A DNA stretch of 64,000 bases, taken from Somniosus microcephalus (taxonomy: Eukaryota). Made by a program: the position numbers and the translations under genes. Positions 5,918 through 35,236 of this stretch are shown here, piece after piece. Under the pieces are notes generated by a model. It was not told the DNA's origin, made no database searches, and saw only the letters and a program-made list of their open reading frames with translations. The stretch lies in the NCBI GenBank assembly GCA_052327205.1, contig CM126207.1, positions 82,522,001 through 82,586,000 of the forward strand. Direction: 5' to 3'. The first letter of the stretch is position 1, and each line of letters starts with the position of its first letter.

Positions 5918-5997
5918 GTATTTAACCGATTGTAACTTAATTTTATTTTTATGGTTTGAATTTTGGTGTAGTTCATTAAGTGTTTGGTGAACATTAG

Positions 5998-9940: not shown

Positions 9941-10074
9941 AATAAATACTGCCAAATTTGAAAACCTGATATTTTCACTGGGAAGACTGCTGACTAAGGT
10001 TTATAGAGGTTCTTAATTTAAAATGGGACAGCGCGCTCACCTGCTGATTCGTTTAGTGAAAGCATACAAATGAA

Positions 10075-12519: not shown

Positions 12520-13225
12520 CAGGTAGACTATCCTTTATCCGCACTTCCGAAAACCTCTAAAAACCGAAAGTTTTTTTGTGGAGCATAAGTCGTGCGCACG
12601 ACATGACCCGAGTGGCGCCAAACATGACCGGAGTGGTCCGGGAGCTCTGCCTTTCCCTGTGAGCAGGGCAGAGGGTCACAGAGTTCCCTCCTGGGTAGGA
12701 GATTGCAGGCCGAGCCGGGCAGTGTGAAGGAGGTACCGGGAGAGTGAACCCAATAATACAGCGGCCCGTCCGATAGTCTTTTGTTCCCCCCCCCGACCCC
12801 GACCTGATTTGCGGGCCAGCTTAGTGTAGGAGTCAGCCGATATCTGGCTTTCCCACAACTGGCGGCAGCAGTCAAGCCCCAGACCCCCGCTAAGTCAAGG
12901 AATTCAGATACGGAGCAGGGGGAGCCGGAAACCTCGATCTAACGGCAGAAATCAGCAGCCATTTTGTTAGGTTTATTTTCTTCCCCTAGCATTTTTTTTC
13001 TTCCCCCTAGCATTTTTTTAAACAGTCAGGCTGTGGAAAGAGTCTCTGTAGCTTAGCAACAGCTTCAGAGACACTCCCAAGGCAGGGCCCGAGTGTTTAC
13101 AAGCTGTTGCTAAGCAACAGTGTTTGTTGTCAGATACGGAGATGAAAACCTTCTGAAATCCGAAAAATTCCGAAAACCGAAACACAGCTGGTCCCAAGGT
13201 TTTCGGATAAAGGATAGTCTACCTG
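12520..13225. mobile_element. Tc1/mariner (Tigger/pogo-like) MITE
   Basis: TIR CAGGTAGACTATCCTTTATCCG; TA TSD. Confidence 0.9.
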
Positions 13226-15281: not shown

Positions 15282-15364
15282 AGACTAGAGAGAGAATACA
15301 ATTGTCCCTGTGTAATGGGAAAACCTAAAGTTGCCTTCAGAGAAACTATCTCTACATATGTTCC
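15282..15364 (+). CDS. GFM1: GFM1 coding exon (RLEREYNCPCVMGKPKVAFRETISTYVP)
   Basis: tttag/gtaagt; 83 nt, ends in phase 2; GKPKVAFRETI motif. Confidence 0.96.
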
Positions 15365-15596
15365 GTAAGTAAAGTTTCATAACTATCAATTTACTAGACT
15401 TATGTTTCATTAACCACTTAGCAATTTAAGCTGTATTACATTTTTGAAATAAGTGAAGATCAAGAGATTTGATTTTCACATTTTGCCTGAGTTCCACATT
15501 CAGTGCTTAACATTTTTACTTGAAGTCCTTTTTAGAGAGCAATTCTTTTTATTAACCAAATCTTCCCAATCCTTCATGTGGCACTAAACAGCAAGG

Positions 15597-16215
15597 GAAC
15601 ATAGGAGCAGAGGTGTGCAATTTAGCCCCGAGAACTCATTCCACCATTCAGTGAGTCATGGCTAATCTGTATCCTAACTCCATCCACCCAGCTTGGCTCC
15701 ATATCCCTTAATACCCATGGCTAGCAAAAATCTAGCGATCTCCAATTTGAAATTAATAATTGAGCTAGCATCTACTGCTTTTTGTGGGAGAGGGTTCCAC
15801 ACTTCTACCACCCTTTGTGTGAAGAAGTGTTTCCTAACTTCTCTCCTGAATGGCCTGGCTCTGGTTTTAAGGTTATGTCCCCTTGTCCTAGACTCCCCCA
15901 CCAGTGGAAAAAAGTTTTTCTCTCTCTACCCTATCAATTCCTTTCAAAATCCTAAAAACCTCAATCATATAACCCCTTAACCGTCTATATTCCAGGGAAT
16001 ACAATCTCAGTTTATGGAATCCTCCGAATCTAACCCCTGAAGCCCTGGTAACATTCTGATCAATCTGTGCTACACTCCTTCCAAGGCCAATATATCCTTT
16101 CTAAGGTGCAGTGCCCAGAATTTTACACAGTGCTCCAGATGTGGTCTAACCAGGGCTTTGTATAGCTGTAGCAAAACCTCCTCCCTTTTATATTCTAGCC
16201 CTCTAGTTATAATGG
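15597..16215 (-). mobile_element. CR1 LINE 3' fragment
   Basis: GESRTRGHNLK...FFTQRVVEVWN. Confidence 0.9.
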
Positions 16216-16414
16216 GCATTCTGGAATTTGATTAGTGTAGCACCACATTAACATGCTGATTTTTAATAATCATGATTTGTTCAGTTGGTGGAAAAATGGA
16301 TCTTGATACTGGGAAATACATAGGCTAAACATACCAGTGAAATCTTTACTTTGCAAAAAGCTTCAGTTAAGTGGCAGTGCAGGGGCACTGTGCATTCCAG
16401 CACTAACACCTAAT

Positions 16415-17894
16415 GCCCCGGATTTTGCGGTTGTAATGACGACGAAACTGTCAACGTTCGTTACTCTCTGAAACTGACGGCAACTTCTGGCACCCGCACA
16501 TGTGCAGTTAAACGCGGAAATCTAGAAGTTGCTGTCATTGATTCCCCTTTCCTTCGCAGGGTGCGCTGTTAAAGGCCTCGCAGATGGAAATCTTACAAAT
16601 CACTTGAATTGATGTGAACTTCCATTTTTTACGCTCTAATCTCGCTGTAAAAATCCCATAAAAAGTTGAACCTTGTTGAATGAGGTGGAACTGGGTTTTT
16701 AACGGCATACTAAGTCGTAATTAATTCTGAAAAACCTCTCTGGCCCTAAAAAAAAAAACCTAAATTTTTATTTGTGAAATGTCAAATTTCTCCATTTATG
16801 ATCAAAATTCATAGATTCTTTTTAAAAATTAAAGCCCGTATTTTCCGATCGGAGGCTTCCTGCGTGCGGAGGCCTCCGATCTGGAAAAAATCTACGCCCT
16901 TACCTGAGGGCTCCAGAGATCCGGCCATTTCTGCTCCTGGACCTCTGCTCTATGAAATGCGCAGGGCCTACGTATCCCAGGGGCGCATGCAGTTCGCAAG
17001 CATCCCTGGGATCACGTGGGCCATGGGGAACCAATGAAAGAAGGGAATCTCCCTTCATACTTTTGACCGCTTAGAACTGTCAAAAGTATGAATGGCGATC
17101 ACTCCAAAAACACATCAAAACATTAAATAAATTTTTTTAAATCACGTTTTTAAAAATAGTTTAAATTACATTCAATTAAATATTTTAAACATTTAATTTT
17201 TTGAAAAAAATTGAAGTTTTTTACGGGGCTAAAAATAAACTTGCCTTTTTTTAAAGTATTTTAAAATTATAAATGAGTGGGAATATTTTTTTACTTTTTT
17301 AAACTCTTATACTGGCCTTACGCCTACTTTAAACCAGGCGTAAGATTTTTAAGGGATTTCAGTGGGCGGAGGTTCTGCAGAAAGCAGAACTCTCCACCCG
17401 CAGAGGCCCTTCTCCAGGGCAGGTGTGCGATCTGTCAAGAGGATTCTTGATAGTTCAGAAGTGCCTGTTTTCAGCGCATGCGCTTCACATTCCTGAAACC
17501 AGCACTTGCGAGGTCCCTACAGGTGTGGACACACCCGTAGGGATCGGAAAATACGGGCCTTAAAGTTTGTTTGATATTTCAGATTCTGCCGTAATCCCAT
17601 GTGTATGTCCCAATCCTTATTTCTCTCTGTAAAATGATTAAAAAGTGTAGGATTGTCGGTGCTTTTTACTTCCTCGTTTGCTATCTGTGCGAATTCTTCA
17701 TCGTGATTGGCTGCTTAGCCTGCTTGATTATATCACTGTTGCTGGACGCCAGAGATCCCCTGTTAGCGGCATCCGAATGAAATTAACATCAGCAAAAGTG
17801 AAATCCATGCCAGAGATCGCTAAATCTTTGGGCAGCTTTCTTCAAGGTCAGCGGCGAGCGCTGTCACTTCGCCGCTGACTGCAAAATCCTGGCC
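16415..17894. mobile_element. Harbinger-type MITE, family B, containing a nested MITE
   Basis: GGATTTTGC/GCAAAATCC TIR core; AAT TSD. Confidence 0.7.
16832..17559. mobile_element. Harbinger-type MITE, family C (nested)
   Basis: TIR GCCCGTATTTTCCGATC; similar to 28089-28779. Confidence 0.8.
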
Positions 17895-18193
17895 AATGCC
17901 ACAGATAAAAGGATGCAGGTTTGATGCGGGCTTAGTTCTAGCCGTGCTGTGTGAGGATGTGCTGAATGAAGATTGTTATACATTGTGCACATACTCCATG
18001 AATAATGCTGAAGTAGCCAAGGATAAAGTTGAAGGAGATCGAGGGATGCTGGTAGACTTGGCATTTGCAGTATCGGGTTAATGTGGAGCAACAAAGAACA
18101 GAGCCAATTAAATGTTGAATTATATAGCCAAATCATTAGAATACAACTCAGAAGATGACCTGCTAAAATTGTGCAGTGCTCTCATCAGACTAC

Positions 18194-20349
18194 GGCCGGA
18201 ATTTTCTGTGCCTGGGCGGGTCGGATGCGGGTGGTCACCATGGCGTGTCACAACCCCGTTCTTCATACCATGCCACTCCTGAGATCGACTTTGTTGATGA
18301 CCCCTATTAAGGTCGCCCTGCGCGTTTCCTGACCCTATTAAAAGTTCAGGTCTGATGACTTCATCGATGACACGTTTTCAGCCGGGATATTTAAAGGCGC
18401 CATGACCATATTGCATTTGAAGGCTCATCCAGGAGTGTGCAGGCTGCACACTGCACAATTGGACTACTGCAAAAAGTGCACCGAAACAGAGGGCTGCACC
18501 CAGGTTCTCAGATGATTCCCTCCATATTCTTGTGAAGGGAGTGAGAACACATAGGAAGGTCCTCTTCCCTTCTAATGGGCAGAAGAGACCTCCCCAGGAG
18601 ACAAAACGAGCCTGGCTCCAAATAGCAGAGGAGGTCAACAGCAGGGATGTGGTCAGGAGGACCTGGCTGCCGTGCCGGAAACGTTTCAATGATCTCACTA
18701 GATCAGGAAAGGTGAGTGCAAAACCATACTCAACTTCATCCTGCTGCGCCTCACATCACATTCCCATCACTCTGCTTTCCCAACCCTGTTCCTGCACATC
18801 CTTACTCATACCTTGCACGTCCACCCATCCTCTCTATCTACATTATCACACCCCCATCTGACTAGCCACCCCTCACACTCACCCTCATCCTAATGCAATC
18901 ATACCAACTAACAAAACACAAGGAGGCCACTTGGCATTGGCACCCCATTCCATCATAGTCACCCTCTAAAGATGTAACCCATCCATTCCTTACACTCATT
19001 CCATCACTCTCACTCAACCTTCTCTTCATTCCCTCCTTGCAGGAAAAGAGAGCCCACAATGAGAGGGAGAGAACCGGAGGTGGCACTCCATCATTGGCCA
19101 CCCTACCATCAGCAGAGGAGGCTGCCTTGGAAGTGTCTGGAGGTGGGAGATGGAGAGAGGGGGACATCTCAGCAACCTGGTGACAGAATTACATATCATA
19201 CAGCGACATGGCATGCAGCAGTCACTCATATGGAGACTGAAGGCAGCAGCCAGTGAATGTTCATCATGTGCATTGTGGTATCTGTACCCATTCTTCATAT
19301 AACATATCTAATTCATCCCACAGGTTCATCAAGAGCCCCCCCCCCCCCCCCCCCACTGTCCAGGAGGAAGAAAAAGACGACCCCTCAGAACAGCGTCCAG
19401 CCTCTGAAGGCGCACCGTCACCAGACATAAACACCCAGCACCAGCACAGATACTTACACATTGGTGAGTCCCACGTGAGAGAAGAGTAGTGTTGTCACCT
19501 GGTGTCTCACAAGTCACAAGTGAGCAAGAGTAGCTGGTGGAGACGGGGACAGCAGTGGAGACTCCTTCCTGGAGGGCGCAGGATTCTCCCAGCTCTGCTC
19601 AACTGCATGCAGACGCTGAGCCTCTGGGACCATCCAGAAAAAGGACGTTACCGGAGGTGCAGCAAGAAGTGCAGGAGGCTTTGACAGGTTTTGCGACTGC
19701 AATGTCTACAAATGTCCAGAGAATGGAGGAGTCCATCTCCAACATGAGCACCACTGTGTTGCAGGCGGTGGCGACTGTAGGCTCTTCCATGGATAGGATG
19801 GCTACCTGCATGGAGCAGCTAATGCGCCACTCATAGGAGCACATGGCCTCTATGGAGAATAGATGGATTAGGCTCATAGATGTCCTCTCTAGGAGGGATG
19901 TTGATGTCAAAGTGGATCCTCGTGGCCCTACTGCTGTGCAGCAAGGTGCTCTCTAACTCCTTGCTAGCAGGGAAGTGCAGGTGGCCCATGAGAGGGATGA
20001 TGGTGAGCGGGGACATGGAAGTGGGGGCTCCTCTCAGGCTCACACTTCTCCCCCGTTGCCCGGTTGACACAGACTCCTGGGTGATGATGAAGTGTCCTGG
20101 TGCATGCAGGAATCCGGCACTTCCATCGGGCCTACGGGTGAGTACCCCGTGCGTACTCACCCGTGGAGACCCGAATTTCTGGGCCAATAATTTAAATTAG
20201 CTCGCCCACCTCTGCCGTTCGGGTCGCTGCCGCGCAGGCAAACACACCCGAGAGAAAGGCGCATGGGGGCGGGATGACGACAAGTTCCTGACCCGCTGCA
20301 AGATATTTCAAATTTTCCGTGCGTGCACGAACTCCAGAAAATTCCGGCC
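18194..20349 (+). mobile_element. Non-autonomous PIF/Harbinger transposon carrying only the Myb/SANT gene
   Basis: Perfect 15-bp TIR GGCCGGAATTTTCTG; TAC TSD; internal Myb/SANT exons. Confidence 0.9.
18460..20030 (+). pseudogene. Harbinger Myb/SANT-like gene, three exons (~18460-18711, 19043-19179, 19324-), frameshifted
   Basis: APRFSD..L..LV..V, AW..IAEEVN, R.W..CRKRFNDL, EKRAHN..ERTGGG; gtgagt donor and ttgcag acceptor. Confidence 0.8.
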
Positions 20350-20889
20350 TACATCTTGAGTATTATGTTTAGTTTTGGCCGTCAAGATATAACGGAGATA
20401 TTCAAATCCAGGAGATGGTGGAGAGAAGACTGGTGAAGCTGATCTCTAGCTGGTGAGGACTGAGTTTTGAGGATAGACTTGAGTAGGCAACTGAGCAGGA
20501 ACCAAACAGTATAGAAAAAGCAAAGCTAGAACACTGCTTCAAGTTAAACCATGACATTAGGACAAGAGGGCATCAGATCAAACTGGGGAAAGTAAAATTT
20601 AGGACTGATGTAAAAATGTTTCTCAAAACAACGATCAACACAGGGAATGGACTTTTGTACAGGATATAGGATGCAAAACAACACTGAAATCATTCACAGT
20701 ACAGTATATGAGATGAGAATTTACATCCCTGTTTGACACCAAACGTGTGCGCAGGCCTATGGTATTTTTCCAAATGCAGATAACATGAAGGAATCTGGGT
20801 AGGTGGTAGTCAGAAGACAGCAACCATAGTGAGCCAACTCAGAATTGTAACTCTGGCAACTTAAGCTGGCACCAAAATTAAGTTACATT

Positions 20890-21603
20890 GCTCCAGATTT
20901 TGCTCTCGGCGGTGACGGAAAGGCGCTTGCAGTTTACCTTGCTGACAGCTGCCCACAGACTTTGCGGGCTTGTCAGTGGAGATTTCCTCTAATCCGGCGT
21001 TTTTTCCAGCATGGTACCCTCTACAGAGGACCCGTGGTGTGTGTGAGCAGGTTAAGGAACAGCAAGGCTCTTCAACCAATCACACTGAAGAATTCTCACT
21101 GAGACGTGCAGAGTCCAAACCAGGAAGTATAAAGCAGGAAATATAAATTAGATTTAAATGATGTACAGAAAGTGGAATAAAGATTTGGAAATACAGATGG
21201 GATTAAGGGAGAGAGATAGGAGATGGACAAAAAAAGTTTAAAAAAAAAAAAATCTCCAACACTAATTTTCTTCTGAGAGAATGAGACTTCACACTTATGA
21301 AATAAATTTTTCAGGACCAGAGGTTGTTCGGCAGCAATAATTACTGATCAGCCCTAACTTTTTCAGCCATTTTTAGTGCTGAACTAGTGAGCAAGTTCAC
21401 ACCGTAGCAGTCATTTCATTGCTGAGTCTATTGGCAAGGACTGCAACAGCGCACCCTGGGGAGGAGCAGGGTATCTCTGACAGCAACTTCTGGATTTCCA
21501 CATTTAACTGCACATGTGTGTACTCCAGAAGTCGCTGTCATTTCCTCCATTATAACGGTGAGTGCTGATAGACTCCTTTTATTCTCGTTGCAAATTCTGG
21601 ACC
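20890..21603. mobile_element. Harbinger-type MITE, family B, inverted relative to 16415
   Basis: TCCAGA.TTTGC TIR; ATT TSD; shared gcaacttctgg...agaagt hairpin. Confidence 0.7.
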
Positions 21604-21616
21604 ATTATGTTATAAG

Positions 21617-22320
21617 GACATAAGAAATAGTAGCAGGAGTAGGCCATTTGGCCCCTCAAGCCTGCTCCATCATTCAATAAGATCACGGCAGATCTTCTAC
21701 CTCAACTCCACTTCCCTGCACTATCCCCATATCCCTTGATTCCCTTAATATCCAAAAATCTATCGATCTCTGTCTTGAATATACTCAACGACTGAGCTGC
21801 CACAGCCCTCTGGGGTAGAGAATTCCAAAGATTCATTACCCTCTGAGTGAAGAAATTTCTCCTCATCTCAGTCCTAAATGACCGACACTTTATTCTGAGA
21901 CTGTGACCCCTAGTTCCAGACTCCCCAGCCAGGTGAAACATCCTCCCTGCTGCAACCATTTTAAGCCCTGCAAGAATTTTGTATGTTTCAATGAGATCAC
22001 CTCTCATTCTTCTAAACTCTAGAGAATATAGGCCTAGTCTACTCGATCTCTCCTCATAGGACAATCCCCCCATTCCAGAAATCAGAACCTTTGTTGCACT
22101 CCCTCTATGGCAAGTATATCTTTCCTTGGGTAAGGAGACCAAAACTGTACACAATACTCCAGGTGTGGTCTCACCAGGGTCCTATAAACTTGCAGTAAGA
22201 TGCCTTTACTCTTATACTCAAATCCTCTTGTAATAAAGGCCAACATACTATTTGCTTTCTTAATTGCTTGCTGTACCTGCATGTTAATTTTCAGTGATTC
22301 ATGTACAAGGACACCCAGAT
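21617..22320 (-). mobile_element. CR1 LINE 3' fragment
   Basis: LVRPHLEYCVQFWSP; RMRGDLIETYKI. Confidence 0.92.
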
Positions 22321-22771
22321 CCATGGATTTCATCCTGATACTATTCTAATTTAGAGATGCATACCCGAGGATGATCGTTGGATTGTATTCCTTTTGTCTC
22401 TGTCTCCCTCTCTGCCTCTGCCTGTGTCTCTGGCACACACACAGTCATACTCTCATTGGAGTGCTTGGAAAGAATTTTCTTGTATTACGCTGGTCTGCTC
22501 TGTTGCTATTTCCTGTAAATTAAGGAAACAAAAATTGAGGCCTTGCATGTAGCATGGGGTGGGAGAAATGATGAGGCTATTGTAAGGAGGAAAGTCTTCA
22601 AAGGTGGCAGGGCTCTGTATACCAGTTTTGGATGATTTAATTCACTGAAAAGAATTCGGCCTCATCAGACAAAGAACGACGAGGAGCGTATCAAAGATAA
22701 ATAATCCAACTTTCCAGTTTGTGCAGTTTTATAAATGCGGTCACAAAAAATGTGTGTTTCAGTGAGCATTC

Positions 22772-22777
22772 TTTATT
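22772..22777 (-). promoter_or_regulatory. Candidate polyadenylation signal of the nested gene
   Basis: AATAAA on the minus strand ~290 nt after the stop, followed by a T/GT-rich tract. Confidence 0.55.
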
Positions 22778-23064
22778 AATAGATAGCAGTGCCACTTTCA
22801 CTGATGGAACAAATTGTTGAGATTATCAGTGGTTTTATTAATCTGACATTAAGGTAGTTCACTGGCTTGAGTGCGGCTTCAGTCTCGTGTACCATTTAAA
22901 TATGTTTTTTATGGCAGTAGTGGAAAATATAATTGGAAAATTTTAAGACAACATTTGAAGCAGCAGTGTTGCATTCATTGTTAGCTGCAAGTTTCAGTTA
23001 ACTTATGTGCTACAAGTACATTGGGAAATATAAATGTGACTAGTCCTATATGGGTGGTTAGCAC

Positions 23065-23532
23065 TCAGTTCATGGAAAAACCTTCCATAGCTGACCCTTC
23101 AACTGTTTCAAATGCTGATCCTTCAAGTCTTTCAGATTCTGATTCTTTGTATCTTCCAAATCCTGATCCTTCGAGTCTTCCAAATTCTGATTCTTCACGT
23201 CTTCCAAATCCTGATCCTTCGAGTCTTCCAAATTCTGATTCTTCACGTCTTCCAAATCCTGATCCTTCGAGTCTTCCAAATTCTGATTCTTCACGTCTTC
23301 CAAATCCTGATCCTTCGAGTCTTCCAAATTCTGATTCTTCACGTCTTCCAAATCCTGATCCTTCGAGTCTTCCAAATTCTGACTCTTCACGTCTTCCAAA
23401 TCCTGATCCTTCGAGTCTTCCAAATTCTGACTCTTTAGAAAAACTTTCCCATGGAGGAGGCAAGCAAAAGTATTTCACAGTCACTGATTGTTGGGGGTTC
23501 CACATCACCCACATATGGCAAGTGATTATTTC
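23065..23532 (-). CDS. Nested latexin/RARRES1-family gene, exon 6 (EIITCHMWVMWNPQ...KYFC + repeat tail)
   Basis: aacag acceptor; EII-C-W-P-VKY-C matches the RARRES1 last exon; open for 155 aa to TGA; spliced CDS totals 1131 nt. Confidence 0.9.
   Translation of the reverse strand, partial: EIITCHMWVMWNPQQSVTVKYFCLPPPWESFSKESEFGRLEGSGFGRREESEFGRLEGSGFGRREESEFGRLEGSGFGRREESEFGRLEGSGFGRREESEFGRLEGSGFGRREESEFGRLEGSGFGRYKESESERLEGSAFETVEGSAMEGFSMN
23146..23433 (-). repeat. Coding 48-bp tandem repeat x6 (two 24-bp subunits), plus degenerate copies down to ~23075
   Basis: tcttccaaatcctgatccttcgagtcttccaaattctgattcttcacg unit repeated almost perfectly. Confidence 0.97.
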
Positions 23533-23658
23533 CTGTTTAGGGCAGAAAAAAATAGCATTACTTGCCAGAACATGTAATTGATGTGCTGGCACTGATCATT
23601 GTGAAAGGGATTGGAATAGTCTCTAGATATAATCAGTTTATTTCTTTGATTAATTTAC

Positions 23659-23721
23659 CTGGGTTGGCAACTCGTGGAGAAGAACTGTATAGGTAAATTG
23701 AAGAAATTTGTCTGCCCTTAC
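23659..23721 (-). CDS. Nested latexin/RARRES1-family gene, exon 5 (VRADKFLQFTYTVLLHELPTQ)
   Basis: ttccag/gtaaat; 63 nt; YTVLLHE.xTQ motif. Confidence 0.92.
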
Positions 23722-23817
23722 CTGGAAAAAGAGTTGTTTAGTTATTAAAACATTTAATGAAAATGCCACTTTACAGATATGTTCAGTGATGAGAAGATAT
23801 TTATTTTGATTTCTTAC

Positions 23818-23954
23818 CCATTGATTAACTTTCTGTATTTGAGCCATGTCATACTTGAAGATTTCAGTGGATTTTTCCCACATGATGTAGCTGGCACTAA
23901 CTTTTGCCAGGTGCCAGATTGGCATCATTTTAGGGTCTACAAATCCAAAATTAT
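23818..23954 (-). CDS. Nested latexin/RARRES1-family gene, exon 4 (DNFGFVDPKMMPIWHLA...YIMWEKST...KVNQW)
   Basis: ctcag/gtaaga; 137 nt; completes the IPDNFG inhibitory-loop motif. Confidence 0.92.
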
Positions 23955-24101
23955 CTGAGATGCAGGGAGATAAAAAGGCAGTTTTTGAAAAAAAATTGAA
24001 AATCATATTAAGGGTTCTTCTTGAATATTTTGTAATTCTGAAAATCAACTTGATAACTTTAATTAAACTGTTAAGTGACATGGCTAGCTGAAACTTCATA
24101 C

Positions 24102-24273
24102 CCGGAATATTGTAGCCAACCATGGGGTTCCTCTGCTTTTTCAAATTGAGGTAAAATTTATTATCTTTCTTGAAGCTGTCTTTCTTAAGGTCTTTCAGAT
24201 TGCACTTTAGAGTTGTGTCTGGATTTTTTTTCTTGTTGTGGAAGAGTACATTAGCTATACAGATGCCAGTACC
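24102..24273 (-). CDS. Nested latexin/RARRES1-family gene, exon 3 (GTGICIANVLF...DNKFYLNLKKQRNPMVGYNIP)
   Basis: cacag/gtatga; 172 nt, phase 1; DNxFY..LK..P...NIP pattern of the family. Confidence 0.9.
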
Positions 24274-24479
24274 CTGTGGTGAGAAACAGTTATTATAATT
24301 TTGAGTTTAGTTCTTTGAATATTACTTGCATCCTGTTTATTCATTCAAGACAAGGGTAACTGGTCATTTTAGTTTAGCTACTTATATTTAAATGGACAAT
24401 GAAAGATACTGTAACTCTGTCACTTAATTCTCTGTTGCCAAAAATACATTATCAAAAGCAGAAGATATAAAAGACAGAA

Positions 24480-25159
24480 GGCCTAGAAATTGGGTTGAGG
24501 CGCCAAGTTCGCCTGAGCGCAGGATTTAGTGCAGCGTCCGAGTCTTCAGCGATCGTCCGATATTCAGTTTCATTGCCCCCTAGAGGGAGACGGGGCGAGG
24601 CTCGAGGCGCTCCGCGTCCCTCTTAGGGCGCTGAAACTGAATATCGCAGTGCAACGTGCCGCAGCGCCACACGCTGCGGCACGGCACGCTGCGGTACTGC
24701 AGGCCTTCCTCCCATTGTTAAGGGGGAGGGGCCTGCAACAGCGCGATCCCCGATCGCGAATGCCGGCAAAAGAGCCTGGCACCGAGGAGAAGTGCCGGGC
24801 TCTCGGGGTAACAGCCGGCAATGCCGCGGGGGGGGGGGGGCGGTCAGGAGGCCGGGGACGGAGGTGCTGGCAGGCGGCCGCCCCGCACCTCCACCTTAAC
24901 TTGTGCCGCTGCCGGCACAGTAAGGCCCCGTGAACCGGGCGCGGGTAGCGAACGGCGCAACTGCGGCGTTCGCAACTAAATATCGTGAATGGGGCGCTGC
25001 GCACACCAATGACGTCATCGGTGGCGGCGCAGCGCAAAAGGCTAACGCCACCATTATCGCCCCAAATCAGTATCGCGGGAGGCGCAGCCAGTGGCGCTAC
25101 AGCCACTGCCTGCCTCTTTAGGTGCTAACAAGTGGCGCTACTCACCCAATTTCTCCCCC
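24480..25159. mobile_element. GC-rich Harbinger-type MITE, family A, in intron 2 of the nested gene
   Basis: TIR core AGAAATTGGGT/ACCCAATTTCT; internal similarity to 5998-6694. Confidence 0.8.
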
Positions 25160-25238
25160 AGAAGAGTTTAGTTGTGGGTTGTTTTGGACAGTGAATGTTG
25201 CTTATAAGACATGACCCTGTTATCACTATTCTACTTAC

Positions 25239-25307
25239 ATTTGAAGAGCTTTCTTCATTTTTCACTTCAAATTCAAGGTGGTACTTGTGTCCTATATTTG
25301 AAGTCAC
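25239..25307 (-). CDS. Nested latexin/RARRES1-family gene, exon 2 (VTSNIGHKYHLEFEVKNEESSSN)
   Basis: tctctctccag acceptor, gtaagt donor; 69 nt; GHKYHLxF matches latexin. Confidence 0.9.
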
Positions 25308-27060
25308 CTGGAGAGAGAAATATTTTGTTGGTGTGGGTTTATGTTAAGTCAGTCTTGATATTAACAGTAATGTGCACAATCCAGTATGCATTAGTCACAA
25401 CAGTAAAAGGAACAAACATAGCTGAAGAGAAAACCAGCAAGTAGGGAAGGGGCATGTCTTTATAGTTTGTATAGTTATAGCTGCTGTTTTATTTATGTTT
25501 ATGCTTGAGAATTCCGTCATTGTTCAATAGCAAGTTCTGGCAGGACTCTACCATCATTTTAATTTGAAGTGCGGGTGTGAAAACACATTGCACAGATTTT
25601 TGATAAAGAAGGAAAGAGGCAAATTAATTTACTCTCTTCCTGAGCGTGTATATTTTTTGCTGTTTACTATAAAAACCCACTGAACAGATGCAAAGTAGGG
25701 GCAAATAGTCGCACTTCCCATCTTGTACTCAAATTACTCATTTAACTGCTCCCAGTCAGAATTTTGTTTCTATGAATCAAGCAAAACAAATGTTTGTGGG
25801 AGATCTCCTACAACTTCTTTCAGTGCAGATCAGCACCTCATCCTCATTTTCACATCTCTACCCCACCTTGTACCATAACCTCTGACTCGCACCCTAAAAT
25901 ATTTCAAGATTATGAGCATATCAGAGTTCCAGTAAAAGCTTCTGAACTTCTTTTATGGTTTATAAATGTGTTTGAATCTCTTGGTAAGATTGCATTCTAA
26001 TTACTCCTGATAATTTTTATCAGTTGTGAAACAAATTCAGAACGACAAAGAAAACAGTGTGGAATAATTTTTGTATTCTATACAGTTGACCACGAGGCTG
26101 TCCCAATATCCTGACTACGGTAGATAGCATGGATGATTGGATATTCATTTGGTTATTAAAATACAAGGGAATAATATGACGGTAGTAAAGTTTAAACAGA
26201 CAAATTGATATAAAGAAGACTTGTTGAAAAATTGGCATTAAAGCTTAAGAAAATTTGTGCAATGTTTGAGCTGGAACAATGGACATATACTGTAACATTT
26301 GGTTTCATCACTTAGATTTATAAGATGGAACTTTAAACAATATTTAAGGGTTGAAAATATGTGAGAAAGTTCATAGTTTCTAAGTGCCATGAATTAGAAT
26401 ACAAAATGTTTTTTGTTCTGTTAAACAGCCCAGCCCACCCTGACCTTTGCAGGATAGAGGGGTTTTGGCTTTTCTCCAGTTATTGGTACCAGCAAAACTC
26501 TTGGTTTAAGCGTAGATTTTTTTAAAAACTGATTATATGTACTATTTTAGAATGGAATAAATTGAAACTGTTAAAATCTGAAAGCTCCAAATCTACCACC
26601 TATCTTTCATAAATTACAAAATACGCAAGCTAAAGTCGCTGATATAAACTAGCAAGCATAATGTAAGCTGCTTTTGCTAAAAATTGATTATTGGAAATTT
26701 AGATATGGTCGGCTCCTGCATTACCGTGTTATTAAAATGAATGTATCTAGCTTTCTTGCGTACAGGTTCCAATTCAGCAACTTTCCAATAAACAAAGGCA
26801 TTTTCCATCTCCCTGTTCATGTGCTTTGCATTTTAATTCTGTCCTTCTAGTTTGTAACTGGAATATGTTGTACGAAACATATAACTAATACTTGTTTTTC
26901 AGTTTAGCAGCAGCAGCACATTTGCATTAATTTTCTATTTAAATTTTTATAGCATGCAAAAGCATGTATTAAGGACACCAAAAAGCTCTCTTGCTTTCTG
27001 AACTTTCTTCTAATTGTAAGTTTTTAAAATTTCTTTTACTTGTACTGTCTTCCTATTTTT

Positions 27061-27090
<30 letters not shown>

Positions 27091-27091
<1 letters not shown>

Positions 27092-27312
27092 TCAGTAAAG
27101 ACTTTCTTCAGCTTATGTAGTCCATAAACTGTGTTTGGGGATCCATAACGATAGTTTAAATAATGGACAGCCACACTTGCGGCTTGTTGAGCAAGACGAT
27201 CTTCTGTAGGAATTTCAACAGCAGTAACTGTAAGGTCTAAACGATTTGCTGTTTTTGGCATTCCATACAGTAATGGTAGGAAACAAACAACGAAGCATAG
27301 AATTGAGTACAT
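27091..27312 (-). CDS. Nested latexin/RARRES1-family gene, exon 1 (signal peptide + start of first cystatin-like domain)
   Basis: ATG in aaacATG context; MYSILCFVVCFLPLLYG hydrophobic leader; EIP...AASVAVHYLNYRYGSP resembles latexin N-terminus; gag|gtaaga donor. Confidence 0.9.
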
Positions 27313-28088
27313 GTTTGAGCAAACCCAACTATGAACTAAACTTTGAGCCCTTACTTGTGTGGAAGATATAGCTTCAGTTGCGTCAGGATCACCGCACCCT
27401 CACGACCTTAATGATTACGTATTCAAGTAATAAATGCTAATGTTTCATGGACTTTGTTAGTCTCACGTTTGCTTCCAACATACTTGCACTTTTGCCTTTA
27501 TTCAGGACCTAACTTTACTGCATTTGATTGATAATATACTTTGGAATTAAATGCTGACTTCATTCTGTTAATCCTGTTTTTAACAAAAAGCGATTTGCTC
27601 TAACTTTTGAACTTGAGCCAAAGTTCATGTTCAGAGTCTAGATCCTTTGAAGGGCTTTTCCCCATTCATTTATCAGTATTGAGGGGAAGGAATATTATTT
27701 TGTGACTATGTCAATGTCCACTACTTTTAGCTGTACTAGTTACACACACGCAAGCATAATCGTTGCAATTTTTTTAAATTGACCTTTTGTCATGCATGTT
27801 CAGTGTAGTGAGTAAAGAGAACCATTTTAAAAGGCTTGTGAAAAATCTTGAGTTTAGCAATTATTTCAAGGAATTGGCATAGTTTACAGGTTGCCTATCT
27901 GATATTCCTGTTCTGTGCTAGTTTAGAAATCCATAACTAATTTCAAAAAGAAATGATTAGACTTGCTAATTTCTTGTGATGTCAAAAAGATAAAGAATGT
28001 CAGAAATTGAGAGCGTGCAATGATCACAAGGCAGTAATCTGATGGGTTCAATGGACATTTTACACCATGTATCCAATGCTCAACCAAT

Positions 28089-28779
28089 GGCCCAGAAATT
28101 CCGTTTGCAGGCCTCCCGCAGACAGGGCTGCGATCTGGAAAAATCTGCGCTTAGACCGGAGGGCTCCCGGGAGGCGCAGAGTTCCATTACTGGGCCTCCC
28201 CAAACTGCTGGTGCGCAGGGCACACGTATCCCAGAGGTGCACACAGTGTCCCTGGGATCACGTGGGCCATGGGGAGCCAATCAGAGAAGGGAATCTCCAT
28301 TCATAGATTTGACAGGAAGACCTGTCAAATATATGAATAGAGATCACCCCCAAAACATAGTAAAACTTCAAATAATTTTTTTAATCACATTTTTAAAATG
28401 ACCATAAATTACATACATTAACTATTTTAAACAAAAATTTTATTTTTTGGAAAAAAAATTAAAGTTTTCACAGGGCTAAAAATAAACTTACCTTTAAAGT
28501 ATTTTTAAACGATAAATCGGTGGAAATTTTTAAAAAACTTTTTTCAACTCTTATCCTGGTAAAAGCATGCAAGTGTTTTCTGCGGGCGGAGGGTCTCCAA
28601 AAAACAGAACTCTCCACCCGCAGAGTCCCTGCTCCAGCGCAGCCGGAGGATCTGTCGAGAGCTTTCTTGACAGATCGGAAATGCCAGTTTCCAGCGTATG
28701 CCTAAAACCGGCATTTCTGTTGGCCCTACGGGTGAGTACACAGCGCGTACACACCCGTTGGGACTGGAATTTCTGCCTC
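28089..28779. mobile_element. Harbinger-type MITE, family C
   Basis: CAGAAATTCC/GGAATTTCTG TIR core; AAT TSD. Confidence 0.8.
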
Positions 28780-30058
28780 AATGTATCTGAATCCTAAATT
28801 TCAATGGAAGGCATAACTTTGTTTTGGGTTAGTTTATCTGCTGACTGTATCTTTGTGGATATGAGTGGGTATTGTGCTCCAACTCAGTGAGTGATCGGCA
28901 CCCACACTGAAGAATTAACTTTCACTTAATCGCTCTATATTGATCAAGAATTTTGCAGTTGATTATTATGGAATTTATGTTACAACATGATTATTTAAAT
29001 TGCTCACCAGATAAATTGAAATAAGTGGAGGTGAACTTGTGTTAAGAGGATCAGGAACTATATTGTTGGGCTGGAGCTCATGTTTTCTGCCTGGAACCTG
29101 TTAGCTCATGGATATGCCAGTGGTCATGCACTAGAGCACTTTTGATTTGGAATTCTGCATTTGATTGGTCACATTGGGGCTTCTCTTCGGATATTTGGTT
29201 ATCTGAGCCAGATGCATAGCAATATTGAGAAGGAAATGGTGAAAACTTATCTAGGAGTAATTCTTGTAACTGATGGTTGACTTTATAATGAGAATTTCCA
29301 AATGTTATCCTACTCTTGACTCCAAATCAGCAGTGATGTGGGAGAGATCCATGTTTTCAGTTGTTTTCCATCTCTAGCCACTCACCATTTCTTTCTCCCA
29401 TTCTTTACTTGGTTTGCATGGAGTGTTGGACATGGTCTTATCAGAAAAAATTAATTAATTTTAATAAAGCAGCAGGTGAGCAAGAAAGTGACATGAAGAC
29501 TACAACCGTGCACAGCAGTGCAAAGCATAACTCCATTTCATTGATTGAAATGTACTGTTTAAAAAGATTGCATCCCTCCTTAAGTCGCTGTCTTTTGATG
29601 AGGTGTGGTTCCATGCATGCTGATCACTCTCTAGATTTTTTAGAAATCGCTAGATTTTTTAAGTCTAGTTAACCAGAAGATCTGTTGTTTACTGAGTCTT
29701 TCTGGAACTAGCAGCCGTTTTGGTAGCAACATAATGAGGCAATTTTATCATGCGTGCAACTGTTCTCCACAGTGACCTCATTAGGCAACTTCGCGGCTCC
29801 AGTATTTCGTGCATGCACACTGTCTAATAGATCGCAGCTCTGTGGAATAGCGAGGCTCACCGTGTAGCCGGTTTAGAGGAAGACTATACTATGAAGACAG
29901 TACTTTGCACAATTAAATACAGGAGAGTAGTACAGCTGTCTCACTTTCTCAGGACCTGGCTGCAGGATAAAATCAATCAAAGATGGTTCATCTTCAGGCT
30001 CAGATATTACCACTGTATAATATTCAATAGAAAACAAGTCCTGTATTTGCACCTATCT

Positions 30059-30116
30059 CATAATAGGTAACCTAACCCATAATAGGTAACCTAACCATAA
30101 TAGGTAACCTAACCAT
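30059..30116. repeat. 18-19 bp tandem repeat x3
   Basis: cataataggtaacctaac(c). Confidence 0.9.
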
Positions 30117-30232
30117 GTTACATAACCTTTTTTCAAAAACTGTAACCATATTCCTTCTAACCGTTTATAGTTGCTGTACAGATTATGTACAGAATTATTT
30201 TTCAACTTATGTTTTTTCAATCTTTTTTCCAG

Positions 30233-30395
30233 CTTTGAATTTACTCACAAGAAGCAGTCTGGTGGTGCAGGCCAGTATGGCAAGGTTATTGGTTTATTAG
30301 AACCTCTGGAGCCTGAAAACTACACCAAGTTAGAATTTGCTGACAGAACTATTGGAACAAATGTACCAAAGCAGTTTATACCAGCCATTGAGAAG
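30233..30395 (+). CDS. GFM1: GFM1 coding exon ([18 protein letters not shown]...IPAIEK)
   Basis: EF-G domain IV motif [11 protein letters not shown]; ccag/gtaatg; 163 nt completing the phase-2 codon. Confidence 0.97.
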
Positions 30396-30789
30396 GTAAT
30401 GGATCTGATTATCTCCTTACCTCACCCCCTTTTCCTCCATCTCCTATTGACTTCTGTTTTTCTTGCTTTGCTTCAAGCAATATTATCAAGTACCCTAATT
30501 ATTGTACTTGGAAACTTGACTTATAGTGGGGGGGAAACTAAAATTTGAAGATTTTATAATTTTTTCAAGAGAAACTGAATCTGAATAATTGCTACCCACA
30601 TGGCACTACCACAAAACTAAACTTGTGAAGTTTGTTGATAGAACATGGAGGAAGCCTGTCCTCAACTGCTTCACACTTAACAGGAAAATGGAGACTATAA
30701 TTATCTAAATCTGGGATAGAACACATATTTATGGCACTAAAAATATTAGCTGGGTAAAACCAAAGTAATAAACCACATTCAGTGTTTTA

Positions 30790-31155
30790 GCCTGTTCCTG
30801 GGACTAGGGACAGGGTCACTGGCAAGGCTTGGAAGCTAAGCAGAGCCAGGCCTGGTTAGTACCTGGAGGGGTGACCACCAGGGAAGACCAGGTGCAGAAG
30901 GTCACGGAAGGAGCCCCGAGGAGGGGCGGTTGGTGAGCAGGCCCGGGCATTGGGCTGAAGAGTGTCGGACAGGAGGAATGGTGGAAATGGAATGGCGGCG
31001 CGCACAGACGCAGCGGCTTTGCTTCTCCCAGGACGGTGCTATTTATGTTAATGTTATTTGTACTGGACTCATGGGAGCTTGCAAGATCACATTTCGTTGT
31101 TCATGTACTTGTGCATTGTACAATGACAATAAAGTTGAATTATTATTATTATTAA
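30790..31155 (+). mobile_element. 5S rRNA-derived SINE (SINE3-like)
   Basis: ggaagctaagcag..ggcctggttagtac.tgga.gg..gacc..c.gggaa.acc.ggtgc matches the 5S internal promoter; ends aataaagttga(att)n. Confidence 0.7.
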
Positions 31156-32565
31156 TTTAGGGATAAGCTCGGGGGCACGGTCAAACTCTTCTTACCGAAC
31201 TGAGTGTTCAAATCCACCCAAACTGATGGGATGAGAATAGTCTGCATCCACAGTCTCTGAGTGTGGGCATTGACAATCCAATTCCTAAGGAAAACACAAA
31301 ACGAAGCTTTTCATTTATTACTAATTTGGTGTTGTTGCTCAGACCACATGGATGACTGATGTGAGAAACGGAAAATATTCATACTGGTGTAGATGTACCT
31401 GGTACTATTCAGAGGGTGGTTACATTGATAGCACATTGTGGAGGAAACATTACCCTTCAGCTAATCTGCCCTGGGTGAGCCGTATCTTGGTATAAAGAAC
31501 AAAAAGTGAAAAAGTATCTTATTCCTCAGTAATCCTTCCTTTGAGTGTACAATATGGACATAGGGTAATAAAAATGTGTAAAATCTTTTATATTTGGTAC
31601 TTAATCCAAAAATCCACTTCATTAAAAAAGATTGAAAAGGCATAGCTTCTAATTCAATTTGGGTGTCTGAAAGCCAGTGCCCTGCTTGGCATCATCAACC
31701 CATCCTCAGCTCAATGAAACTACATAGAACTAACCATTTTATTTGTTCTATATTCATCCCCACTGGTAAGAAAGTAAGAAATAGTTGTATTACAGAAATC
31801 AATCCATGGCTTGGAGCTCATTTAAGGCGGTCATGTATCTCAGGGATGAGATGACATCAAGAACCCACTGGAGTTGTCCTTTTGCAGGTTATGACATCAT
31901 CTCAACCCTTGATGTGTTGCAGCCTTTAAACCGTTGCAAGCCACTGCTATTGAGATTGTAATGCAGATTGTAAGTTGTAAATTATTTGTATGTTAAAAAT
32001 TATAAAACAAATAGTCTGGCAAATGTACTGAGTGAGATGGTGTTGCAGAAATTTGTGGATTTATTTTATTGACCAATTATATACGGTTAGATGGAATATG
32101 GTTACAGTTTTGCCATAATCAGTGTATCTGACTGTTTTATCCTGGGCCTGTATTAGTTACAGAACATCTATTGAATTGTTTTTTTAAATTAACTTTTTCA
32201 TATTTTGCCTGCCTTTATTTAACTTTTACTATTTTTAGTGTGTGACACTGAGGCTGATTATAATGCCTGCGCAGTTTCTCTGGCTGAGATTTGCTGTTTA
32301 AGCACAGGAAAGGGACTGAAGTGGGACCTTTTGATCTGTATGGCTCCAAGAAAGCTGATTATTAAATTATTTTTATAAATTAAATGGTAAATATAAAATA
32401 TTCAGGTTCAAAGACAAATTAAGCCCATCCTCATATATCCTCCTTCATATCACCACTGGTTAAATTCAGTGAAGTTCTGGTTCAATTTGATTTATGTTTA
32501 AAGCTTTAGTCATACAATCAAAAACATGTTTAAATGTCATAATGTGCTGTGTGTTATTTTGGCAG

Positions 32566-32710
32566 GGATTTCTTGAAGCTTGTGAAAAGGGTCCTCTTAC
32601 AGCTCATAAAATCTCTGGGATACGATTTGTACTGGAAGATGGTGCTCATCACATGGTGGATTCCAATGAAATTTCTTTCATCAGAGCTGGAGAGGGTGCT
32701 GTCAAACAGG
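32566..32710 (+). CDS. GFM1: GFM1 coding exon ([11 protein letters not shown]...[14 protein letters not shown]...KQ)
   Basis: gcag/gtttgt; 145 nt; domain IV HxVDS motif. Confidence 0.96.
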
Positions 32711-33613
32711 GTTTGTAAAGCTAATAGAAAACAGAAATACAAAATGCTAACATATTCTCAATGTCCTCCCCACTTCCTTAGAAAATAATGTGTTAATGGA
32801 GCTTTTGTGTAACTCCTCTTAAATAAAATTATAAATCGGATTTTTAAAAATCAAATTTACTAAAACCTTTGTTTCTGGACAACGGGTGTCTGTTGAAGCA
32901 AAAATACAAGTGATTTCCTTTCAACTGACACCGATTTAGTTTTGCAGATTGCCATACTGGACCTGTATGTCTTTGTCATGAATGGAGAATTGGCATCCTG
33001 GTAACTTCAAAACTGTACATTGGACTTTCTATCAAACAAATCCCACAAATGACTTTCCTAGATCCTTTTCACAATGGGAACCTATATGTACATTTGTAGA
33101 TGGAAGATAATTTGCAATGAAAAATGCCATTTAATTACAAAAATCATTTTTATTTTAATTTCCTATTATATATGTTGCATATTATTACTTTCACTCCAAT
33201 TGCATATAATGTTTATGTACAAGCATTGTGGAATCCTGAAAATAATGTTTTGCCACATGGCAGGAGAAAACCAGCTGGTCCACCTGCCCCAAACTCATGA
33301 TGCCTGGAGCATCCTGACTAGACCCTTCCTAACTCCCCGCAGGTATGTAATCTCCTGGGAGAAGCGAAAACCCAGGGCAAATTGGTGAGGGGGGAGAGAA
33401 TCAGGGAAATTCCTCTTCGATCCCCTCAGGCGATCAAAACTAGCTCAGGAGATCGCATTATCCATGCACGCATTAACTGTAAATGCACTTTACCTTATAT
33501 GTGATGCGACCTCTGCCCTAGCCAAGAACTGGTCCACATCCCTCTTGAAGTTTTGAATAAACAGGTATTTCACAGAAATAATTACTTGCTTTCTATTTGT
33601 TTCCATTGTTCAG

Positions 33614-33774
33614 CTATGGAGAAGATCGGCGTGGTTATTCTGGAGCCCATTATGTCAGTGGAGGTTGTAGCGCCAAATGAGTTTCAGGGAACTGTAATTG
33701 CTGGAGTTAATCGTCGACATGGTGTTATCACTGGCCAGGATGGAGCAGAGGGATACTTTACACTTTATGCTGAT
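33614..33774 (+). CDS. GFM1: GFM1 coding exon ([25 protein letters not shown]...TLYAD)
   Basis: tcag/gtatgt; 161 nt; LEPIM motif of domain V. Confidence 0.96.
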
Positions 33775-34727
33775 GTATGTATAATGCATTGCTTAGTTTT
33801 ATTTCACGGAAAGTTGCTGATATTGTTATTGAGTAACCGTGGTCACATTTTTCCTTATGTAGATAATTATCTGTTTTATTAGTCTCTTCACTGTACATTA
33901 GTGACTATATGCCTGCAAAAATAAATAATGGTTCAGCAGAAGATACTACTTTTGTAGAACATGGTGAAAGGGATGTGGAGCATTGTGGAATGAAACATTT
34001 CTTTTTGTAGTGGTAGCATTAGCATTCCCTGATCATGCGAAGCAGCGGGTGAATGATATCCGTGTCCCTCTTGCATTCCAAATTTTTTTTTATAATACTG
34101 CCCTGTAGGTTTTGGAATTTTTTAATCCCATTTGAAGGATGGGTTTTATTCATTCCTTGCTTGTGTCTATTTCTACCTGAGGGGAATTTACTTGTTTGAG
34201 CAAATAACAGAACATTTGATTGGACATGGACTGAATAGAATAGTTTCCACATTATGGTATATTCACTTTTAGTGACAATTGATGGAAAAGCCCTAATGGC
34301 ATCACATAAATAGTCACCAGTGTTGATGCCAAGCTTTGTTTTTGTTTCAGTAATAAGTAGAATTAAATAGGTGGGAATTTTATGTTATTGGTATACGGTA
34401 CTTTGCTGTTGTGTTGGTAGAATGCAACTTAATTCCACTCGATACCAATAGGTCTGATATCCTAGCGCTAAATTCTACAATAATCTTCACAGGAGACCTT
34501 TATGATTGTTCTGTCAAAATATTTGTTAAAAAGCCAAATATTGGATATATTCACTTCCTTGTCACAATTGTTCTTTTGTCAGTTTTTGTGGTTTGCTTTG
34601 CTTTTGTCAAGTTATGAAATAGCTAATCTTTAACTGAATGAGGGGAAAACAAACTGACATGAAGGGCCAGTTATTGTCAATATTGGCATCATGTAAGATT
34701 TGAAAAATGTTGTTTGTTGTTTTACAG

Positions 34728-34781
34728 GTACCACTGAATGACATGTTTGGCTATGCCACAGAACTGCGGTCTTGCACAGAG
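34728..34781 (+). CDS. GFM1: GFM1 coding exon (VPLNDMFGYATELRSCTE)
   Basis: tacag/gtacat; 54 nt; VPLxxMFGY motif. Confidence 0.96.
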
Positions 34782-35104
34782 GTACATCACCAAACACTTA
34801 ATTGTGCCTAATGTTTACCTGGCCTTCAATTTCATCTCTTGCTCCCCTGAGGCAACTCATTCTCTTTTCCTAAAATAAATGCTTGATGTAGCAGTAAGAA
34901 TGGAAGAGGCTGAAGATTAGTTATTAGTGATAAATAAATCTTTTAGACTTCATTTTTTACATTTTGTACTTTATATAATGATAAATTAAGAATTGATCAA
35001 GTAATCTGAGTCTTTGACCTGATCAGAATTACTGTAAGCAAATGGGTGAACAGTTTAAAGGGTTTAGCAAGCTTTGTTACAACCTTTTTAACTATGTTTT
35101 CCAG

Positions 35105-35236
35105 GGTAAAGGTGAATACACTATGGACTACAGCAGATACCAGCCATGTCTGCCCAGTGTACAGGAAGAGCTGGCCAATAAATACCTAGAAGCAACCGGT
35201 CAACTGCCAATTAAAAAGGGAAAAGCCAAGAACTAA
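35105..35236 (+). CDS. GFM1: GFM1 last coding exon ([15 protein letters not shown]...KKGKAKN*)
   Basis: ccag acceptor; C-terminus matches vertebrate GFM1; TAA at 35234-35236. Confidence 0.97.

What the first reader, a model, noticed from the sequence alone, without database searches (positions are those of the whole stretch)
23065..27312. RARRES1-like secreted gene occupying the LXN position inside GFM1
In mammals, cytosolic LXN lies antisense in this GFM1 intron and RARRES1 lies just 3' of GFM1. This nested gene has a short cleavable-looking signal peptide, two Cys pairs (CIANV..KCN; TCH..YFC), and QW, LLHELxTQ and EGSA features that I recall from RARRES1, while GHKYHL and DNFG are LXN-like. 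I found no second family member in the 28 kb after GFM1. It may represent the pre-duplication ancestor or a lineage-specific paralogue.
Basis: partly seen in the sequence, partly recalled or inferred. Interest (0 to 1): 0.7.

Follow-up and report, generated by a model that had tools for sequence, protein, structure and literature searches.

The report
Ancestral-type shark latexin with repeat tail
A shark gene sitting backwards inside an intron of GFM1, where humans keep latexin, encodes a latexin-family protein built like RARRES1; it is likely the unduplicated forerunner of both human genes, is predicted to be secreted, and carries a repeat tail that may bear sugar chains.

Summary
The gene is real: six exons (27312-23065, minus strand, all GT-AG), 376 codons, inside GFM1 intron 13; contigs of related organisms are spliced at these joints and polyadenylated. 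It is the orthologue of genes that NCBI names 'latexin' in sharks, rays and chimaera. Its build is RARRES1-type: hydrophobic N-terminus, four cysteines, acidic Ser-Gly tail. No second family member was found in the assembly, but gaps remain at the RARRES1 position and the window's piece looks mis-scaffolded. Two hagfish-rooted trees place the chondrichthyan genes outside both bony-vertebrate paralogues (92/80, 94/88), yet AU tests reject neither alternative (p 0.08-0.19). Coelacanth has both types and ray-finned latexins keep a hydrophobic N-terminus, so the duplication likely predates tetrapods and the secreted form is likely ancestral. Not in this finding as written: the tail is an 8-residue repeat with six EGSG motifs, expanded in 8 of 8 sharks (6-21 Ser-Gly), single in chimaera and RARRES1, absent in 4 of 4 rays. 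Likely function: secreted carboxypeptidase-inhibitor fold with a glycosaminoglycan-bearing tail (untested). A new variant of a known family, moderate interest.

The parts
27091..27312 (-). Exon 1 coding part (74 codons): start codon, predicted signal peptide (about residues 1-17), start of cystatin-like domain 1
   Evidence: hydropathy 3.46 over residues 4-12; in-frame stop 30 codons upstream; Pfam LXN E 2e-7; contigs of runs X1, X4, X8 cover it and end at 27392-27506
25239..25307 (-). Exon 2 (23 codons)
   Evidence: AG/GT ends; tblastn to orthologues; joint 24272-25238 in contigs of 5 of 5 contig runs laid; one X4 contig runs from exon 1 through to exons 3 and 4
24102..24273 (-). Exon 3, with Cys102 and Cys121
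   Evidence: (E 4e-10), spliced joints
23818..23954 (-). Exon 4, most conserved part; completes the IPDNFG loop
   Evidence: (E 4e-18)
23659..23721 (-). Exon 5, LLHELPTQ hairpin
23065..23532 (-). Exon 6 coding part: Cys226, Cys244, repeat tail, stop
23077..23436 (-). Fifteen in-frame 24-bp units (alternating, forming a 48-bp repeat); six EGSG and two EGSA motifs; predicted glycosaminoglycan attachment array
   Evidence: TRF 48 bp x 6.8, 96% matches; unit listing; comparison across species
22753..23064 (-). 3' UTR with AATAAA at 22777-22772 and poly(A) site at about 22753-22757
   Evidence: Sequence; poly-T loose ends in X2, X3 and X4
15365..30232 (+). GFM1 intron 13 (host intron)
   Evidence: Flanking exons 15282-15364 and 30233-30395; Pfam EFG_IV on the downstream exon; seven further coding exons found on the 5' side outside the window plus one inferred leader exon
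1775..35236 (+). GFM1 exons 9-18 (host gene, 3' half)
   Evidence: joints of exons 14-18 in contigs

Best explanation
This is the single chondrichthyan member of the latexin/RARRES1 family, nested antisense in GFM1 intron 13, likely an unduplicated pro-orthologue of both LXN and RARRES1, predicted to be secreted, with a shark-expanded Ser-Gly repeat tail that likely carries glycosaminoglycan chains. Shown: gene structure, nesting, splicing and polyadenylation in relatives, family, fold of the nearest orthologue, feature distribution. Inferred history: the ancestral gene was secreted, disulphide-bonded and nested in GFM1; a tandem duplication in the bony-vertebrate stem put a copy 3' of GFM1 that kept the old build (RARRES1/ovocalyxin-32), while the nested copy lost the C-terminal Cys pair and tail and later the signal peptide (LXN); ray-finned fish lost the RARRES1 copy. 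Inferred mechanism: signal peptide cleaved near residue 17, two cystatin-like domains with two disulphides bind and inhibit extracellular M14 A/B metallocarboxypeptidases, and xylosyltransferase primes some EGSG serines, giving a polyanionic tail that holds the inhibitor in matrix, mucus or secretory granules.
For: Four Cys in 13 of 13 chondrichthyan and 19 of 19 RARRES1-type rows; second pair in 0 of 15 LXN-type rows that fill those columns but present in hagfish; tail Ser-Gly in 19 of 19 RARRES1-type and 0 of 17 LXN-type rows. Bony-vertebrate LXN+RARRES1 clade excluding chondrichthyans at 92/80 and 94/88. One family locus in the assembly by three searches and none other in 864 kb around GFM1 and MFSD1. 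One protein per species for 12 named chondrichthyans. Coelacanth has both types, lungfish a RARRES1 type, ray-finned fish LXN type; 7 of 8 ray-finned rows keep a hydrophobic N-terminus. Orthologue model matches human latexin, TM 0.93 by target, rmsd 1.7, with a low-confidence tail. EGSG equals the E/D-G/A-S-G attachment motif, and human RARRES1 is itself a chondroitin-sulphate carrier (PMC8418075 passages). Unit positions 3-4 are S 93%, G 82% across 8 sharks while positions 5 and 8 vary. Recombinant ovocalyxin-32 inhibits carboxypeptidase (PMC8144736 passages).
Against: AU tests do not reject chondrichthyans+RARRES1 (p 0.083, 0.14) or chondrichthyans+LXN (p 0.185, 0.16); the root is one very long branch and RARRES1-type rows are not one clade in either tree. 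No mammalian LXN or lamprey in the tree. Gaps of unknown size lie in the RARRES1 slot. The mapped human RARRES1 site is Ser40, not the C-terminal tail, and that paper warns that motifs alone are ambiguous. Rays have lost the Ser-Gly (0 of 4). The query tail has Arg and Phe near each serine, less acidic than classic sites. No SignalP, no glycan or inhibition data. Two raw RNA runs with the same species label as the best DNA holder show no reads on exons 1-5.
Confidence: 0.6

Rival explanations
1. The duplication is older than jawed vertebrates' split; this gene is the LXN orthologue that kept ancestral features, and RARRES1 was lost in chondrichthyans or hides in unassembled DNA.
For: Same intron as human LXN; AU p 0.185 and 0.16; NCBI names the orthologues 'latexin'; gaps remain in the RARRES1 slot; Kordis and Turk (PMC2784779 passages) list chondrichthyans under latexin.
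Against: Not the best tree in either analysis; none of the LXN-diagnostic changes (Cys to Trp, loss of tail) is present; needs an extra loss; no second gene seen for any of 12 named chondrichthyans.
Confidence: 0.2
2. It is the RARRES1 orthologue; LXN was lost in chondrichthyans, and the gene moved into or converted the nested position.
For: Core identity averages 41% to RARRES1-type and 34% to LXN-type rows; all structural diagnostics are RARRES1-like; AU p 0.083 and 0.14.
Against: The shared features are likely ancestral (hagfish has the second Cys pair), LXN has a long stem branch that explains the lower identity, and the position needs an extra event.
Confidence: 0.12
3. The tail is not a glycan carrier but a precursor of repeated amidated peptides, cut at Gly-Arg-Arg.
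For: Five GRR sites at 16-residue spacing in this tail, the textbook amidation signal (recalled).
Against: GRR or GKR occurs in 0 of the 7 other shark tails and 0 in sawfish; the conserved part of the unit is EGSG.
Confidence: 0.07
4. The tail is a nearly neutral minisatellite expansion, or an unglycosylated disordered spacer or phosphorylated acidic tail.
For: Copy number and unit differ by species and units are homogenised within species; rays do without it; ovocalyxin-32's tail is phosphorylated (PMC9363672 passages).
Against: Frame, period and the Ser-Gly are kept in 8 of 8 sharks; S-x-E kinase motifs number only 0-2 per tail.
Confidence: 0.3

Closest known systems
RARRES1 / TIG1 / ovocalyxin-32 (latexin family, Pfam PF06907, MEROPS I47)
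   Same: Hydrophobic N-terminus, both Cys pairs, LLHE-x-PTQE-x-x-x-C motif, acidic Ser-Gly tail ending in EGSA; 35-46% core identity.
   Different: Nested in GFM1 intron 13 rather than 3' of GFM1; tail 132 residues with six EGSG against 18-31 residues with one to four Ser-Gly; lacks the longer N-terminal region of mammalian RARRES1.
Latexin (LXN), human structure 2BO9, mouse 1WNH
   Same: Genomic position, fold, IPDNFG loop and H-x4-QEI hairpin; 29-40% core identity to the non-mammalian LXN rows.
   Different: LXN-type proteins lack the second Cys pair and the Ser-Gly tail; human, mouse and frog LXN start at the core with no signal peptide.
Chondrichthyan genes named 'latexin' by NCBI/UniRef (Pristiophorus, Heptranchias, Scyliorhinus, Cetorhinus, Stegostoma, Mustelus, rays, Callorhinchus)
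   Same: Direct orthologues, 50-85% core identity, same N-terminus and cysteines.
   Different: Repeat unit and number are species-specific; only this one alternates two units with GRR; rays and chimaera lack the array.
Ser-Gly repeat proteoglycan domains (serglycin, aggrecan CS region; recalled)
   Same: Many Ser-Gly sites with acidic neighbours in a disordered region.
   Different: No homology tested or claimed; attachment here is only predicted.

Membership tests
Latexin family (PF06907) | Match to the LXN profile over its length | tested here: met
   Five of six exons hit consecutive profile parts 2-213
Latexin family (PF06907) | Two packed cystatin-like domains | tested here: met
   Tested on the 85%-identical orthologue P0001, not on the spliced query: pLDDT above 90 over most of the core, Foldseek 2bo9_B E 1e-21
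Latexin family (PF06907) | Inhibition of M14 A/B carboxypeptidases | not testable with these tools
   Loop residues kept; that they form the interface is recalled; no assay
RARRES1 orthologue group | N-terminal signal/anchor, four Cys, acidic Ser-Gly tail | tested here: met
   (hydropathy only; no SignalP available)
RARRES1 orthologue group | Position 3' of GFM1, before MFSD1 | tested here: not met
   Gene is inside intron 13
RARRES1 orthologue group | One clade with RARRES1 | tested here: inconclusive
   Not in best trees; AU p 0.083, 0.14
LXN orthologue group | Antisense in GFM1 intron 13 | tested here: met
   (exon 1 of GFM1 inferred, not located)
LXN orthologue group | Loss of second Cys pair and of the Ser-Gly tail | tested here: not met
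LXN orthologue group | One clade with LXN | tested here: inconclusive
   LXN clade is 100/99 without it; AU p 0.185, 0.16 for adding it
Proteoglycan core protein | Ser-Gly in acidic, disordered context on a secretory-pathway protein | tested here: met
   Six EGSG, net tail charge -11; low pLDDT tail in orthologue; motif from PMC8418075
Proteoglycan core protein | Glycosaminoglycan actually attached | not testable with these tools
   Needs glycoproteomics or lyase digestion

The most novel reading that the evidence does not exclude
Sharks turned the ancestral latexin/RARRES1 gene into a multi-chain proteoglycan, a carboxypeptidase inhibitor with up to about 20 glycosaminoglycan sites, by expanding a single EGSG site that is conserved in the tail of vertebrate RARRES1 and ovocalyxin-32; the family's ancestor was a secreted, glycanated extracellular inhibitor, the duplication happened in the bony-vertebrate stem, and cytosolic latexin is the derived form.
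Probability: 0.35. Interest if true: 0.6.

Novelty: new variant of a known kind. Interest (0 to 1): 0.42.

Why it matters
Whether RARRES1 works in the secretory pathway or on cytosolic targets, and why cytosolic latexin inhibits secreted carboxypeptidases, are open points; an ancestral secreted form would explain latexin's mismatch as a late loss of the signal peptide. It would move the LXN/RARRES1 duplication from tetrapods (PMC2784779) to bony vertebrates, show that the name 'latexin' hides a RARRES1-type protein in sharks, and point to the conserved RARRES1 C-terminal Ser-Gly as a testable glycan site, amplified in sharks into an easy experimental target.

Tried and rejected
No RNA holder on record was listed; the five contig runs laid are only guessed to be RNA and come from related organisms, and their depths were not used to rank genes. 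First structure prediction on a 7-sequence alignment was poor (pLDDT 57) and was replaced by a 46-sequence one. Motif search for MFSD1 in 429 kb beyond GFM1 found nothing; it was then found 1.17 Mb on the other side. Attempt to bridge the gap upstream of MFSD1 with a DNA search hit only a repeat family. A whole-family alignment could not be run on the genome, so genome-wide absence rests on one Pfam profile and two single proteins. ESM Atlas search only returned latexin clusters. Paper searches for latexin+shark+signal peptide gave 0 papers, latexin+shark 6 papers unrelated by title; searches listed no study of chondrichthyan latexin. PMC6422194, PMC12876459 passages gave nothing on evolution. 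No complex prediction was run. Rejected: lineage-specific paralogue; pseudogene or chance frame; GHKYH and DNFG as LXN markers. Synteny of the orthologues in other species could not be checked.
Full report
Observation. On the minus strand six exons (27312-27091, 25307-25239, 24273-24102, 23954-23818, 23721-23659, 23532-23065) all have AG/GT ends and join to an open 376-codon frame. Five of the six hit consecutive parts of Pfam LXN. An in-frame stop lies 30 codons upstream of the ATG, residues 4-12 average 3.46 on the Kyte-Doolittle scale, and there is no other strongly hydrophobic stretch; SignalP was not available. GFM1 exons 9-18 lie on the plus strand from 1775 to 35236 and the gene sits between those at 15282-15364 and 30233-30395. 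Counting seven coding exons found outside the window and one inferred leader exon, this is intron 13, where human LXN lies (bioRxiv 10.1101/212191, passages).

Transcription. No run on record as RNA holds the stretch. Contigs of five runs guessed to be RNA, from three related organisms and three studies, skip introns 2-5 at the predicted joints (5 of 5 runs), one X4 contig continues from exon 1 into exons 3 and 4 with room for exon 2, and 3 of 5 end in poly(A) at 22753-22757 behind an AATAAA. Contig 5' ends at 27392-27398 in X1 and X4 leave 27312 as the first ATG. Two raw RNA runs with the species label of the best DNA holder (24% and 31% read) gave no reads on exons 1-5; their tissue is unknown. 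Use of the ATG at protein level is untested, but 11 of 12 named chondrichthyan orthologues have the same hydrophobic start.

Copy number and surroundings. In the 6.4-Gb assembly the Pfam profile, a newt RARRES1-type protein and a frog LXN each found only this locus (7, 5 and 14 candidates scored, so sensitivity is limited). The 5' half of GFM1, an MLF1 motif and MFSD1 lie on the minus strand about 1.1 Mb away, and the window's 79-kb piece is bounded by 500-N gaps, with further gaps between the GFM1 5' half and MFSD1. The likely reading is a scaffolding error with true order MLF1-GFM1-MFSD1. A 79-sequence profile found no other member in 864 kb covering both places or in 30 of the 39.8 kb of contig C1308, which adds 8.4 kb upstream of MFSD1. 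The RARRES1 slot is therefore empty in what is assembled, but it contains gaps of unknown size.

Family and features. Searches returned one protein each for 12 named chondrichthyans, 11 named latexin and one hypothetical, and a profile search over cluster representatives (143 hits; 20 looked up by name) added a hagfish 'latexin-like', coelacanth LXN, lungfish, sturgeon, gar, bichir, teleost and tetrapod proteins. In a 50-row alignment four cysteines are present in 13 of 13 chondrichthyan and 19 of 19 RARRES1-type rows; the second pair is in 0 of 15 LXN-type rows that fill the columns, and in hagfish; a tail Ser-Gly is in 19 of 19 RARRES1-type and 0 of 17 LXN-type rows; 7 of 8 ray-finned LXN rows have a hydrophobic N-terminus, 0 of 4 frog rows do. 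Human and mouse latexin, seen only in the printed alignments, also lack the second pair. The fold of orthologue P0001 matches human latexin (rmsd 1.7, E 1e-21) and its tail is low-confidence.

Phylogeny. Rooted on hagfish, with the tail and N-terminus left out, the best tree (50 rows, LG+C20) puts chondrichthyans outside a clade of all bony-vertebrate RARRES1 and LXN at 92/80; a 36-row LG+G4 tree, dropping 14 long, partial or redundant rows, gives 94/88. LXN is a firm clade (100/99) that includes ray-finned fish and coelacanth. Against this: neither support value is starred, the root branch is very long, coelacanth and lungfish RARRES1-type rows fall weakly with LXN, and AU tests reject neither chondrichthyans+RARRES1 (p 0.083, 0.14) nor chondrichthyans+LXN (p 0.185, 0.16). 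Short or fragmentary hits, divergent squamate and marsupial-like unnamed rows, and most birds were not used; lamprey and mammalian LXN were not available. Position (LXN-like), build (RARRES1-like), single copy and best tree together fit an unduplicated gene most simply; I put that at about 0.65.

The tail. Exon 6 holds a 48-bp array (6.8 copies, 96% matches) made of fifteen 8-residue units with six EGSG and two EGSA. All 8 sharks examined have the 8-residue array with 6-21 Ser-Gly; chimaera has one site; 0 of 4 rays have Ser-Gly, sawfish repeating EGTG instead. Across sharks the unit keeps E 82%, G 76%, S 93%, G 82% at positions 1-4 while positions 5 and 8 vary; position 7 was used to pick units and is not evidence. 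E/D-G/A-S-G is a published attachment motif, and human RARRES1 is listed as a chondroitin-sulphate carrier, at Ser40 rather than the tail (PMC8418075, passages; context rules in PMC10424144, passages). I put glycosaminoglycan attachment at about 0.55. The GRR amidation reading is specific to this species (5 sites here, 0 in 8 other tails). An earlier first-stage note on this window (e1-9569831) had raised both readings; it is not independent support.

Mechanism. [quoted passage not shown] Human RARRES1 is reported in the ER lumen and as a secreted form (PMC3641360, passages). None of this was tested on the shark protein.

What is known. Kordis and Turk (PMC2784779, passages only; tree figure and supplements not seen) already list latexin in chondrichthyans and TIG1 only in tetrapods, so a single shark gene is in print; they date the duplication to tetrapods, which the coelacanth pair here argues against. 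Le Roy et al. (passages and supplementary table 2) use the zebrafish latexin gene as the fish RARRES1, which my trees do not support for ray-finned fish (zebrafish itself was not in the tree). I found no paper on the signal peptide or repeat tail of shark latexin (open-access library only).

Verdict. Real, already annotated by family in related genomes; a new variant by its build and tail; interest 0.42.

Noticed in passing
G000:C6:81.36-81.50 Mb versus 82,521,034-82,599,822 (contains the window): GFM1 is split: exons 2-8 on the minus strand at 81.394-81.409 Mb, exons 9-18 on the plus strand in the window, with 500-N gaps at both breakpoints; likely a mis-scaffolded 79-kb piece. Sequence just before the first gap matches sequence just after the second (318 bp, 97.8%).
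   Followed up: partly
G000:C1308:8412-24415: Unplaced contig 99.4% identical to the MFSD1 5' region of C6, probably a haplotig.
   Followed up: partly
window 24478-25161: A 684-bp GC-rich repeat in intron 2 is absent from contigs of related organism A (runs X1, X2, X3): a recent insertion.
   Followed up: no
window 23722-25238: One X8 contig joins exon 2 to exon 5, skipping exons 3 and 4 (309 bases, in frame): possible short isoform in organism C.
   Followed up: no
window 18421-18861 (+): Myb/SANT-like ORF (PF13873) in the same GFM1 intron, probably a Harbinger-type transposon piece.
   Followed up: no
window 44781-48700 (-): ORFs with zinc knuckle and aspartyl protease matches, LTR-retrotransposon-like, next to a 490-codon coiled-coil-like frame with only a weak Pfam match.
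   Followed up: no
P0138/P0248 (Myxine): A hagfish latexin-like protein extends the family to cyclostomes, earlier than the gnathostome origin given in PMC2784779.
   Followed up: partly
P0014 (Mixophyes), P0099 (unnamed): Database models that fuse RARRES1-type and LXN-type halves, probably read-through annotation of the tandem pair.
   Followed up: partly
P0098, P0104, P0117 and teleost rows: Ray-finned latexins are LXN-type in the core yet keep a hydrophobic N-terminus; no RARRES1-type protein of a ray-finned fish was seen among the named hits.
   Followed up: partly
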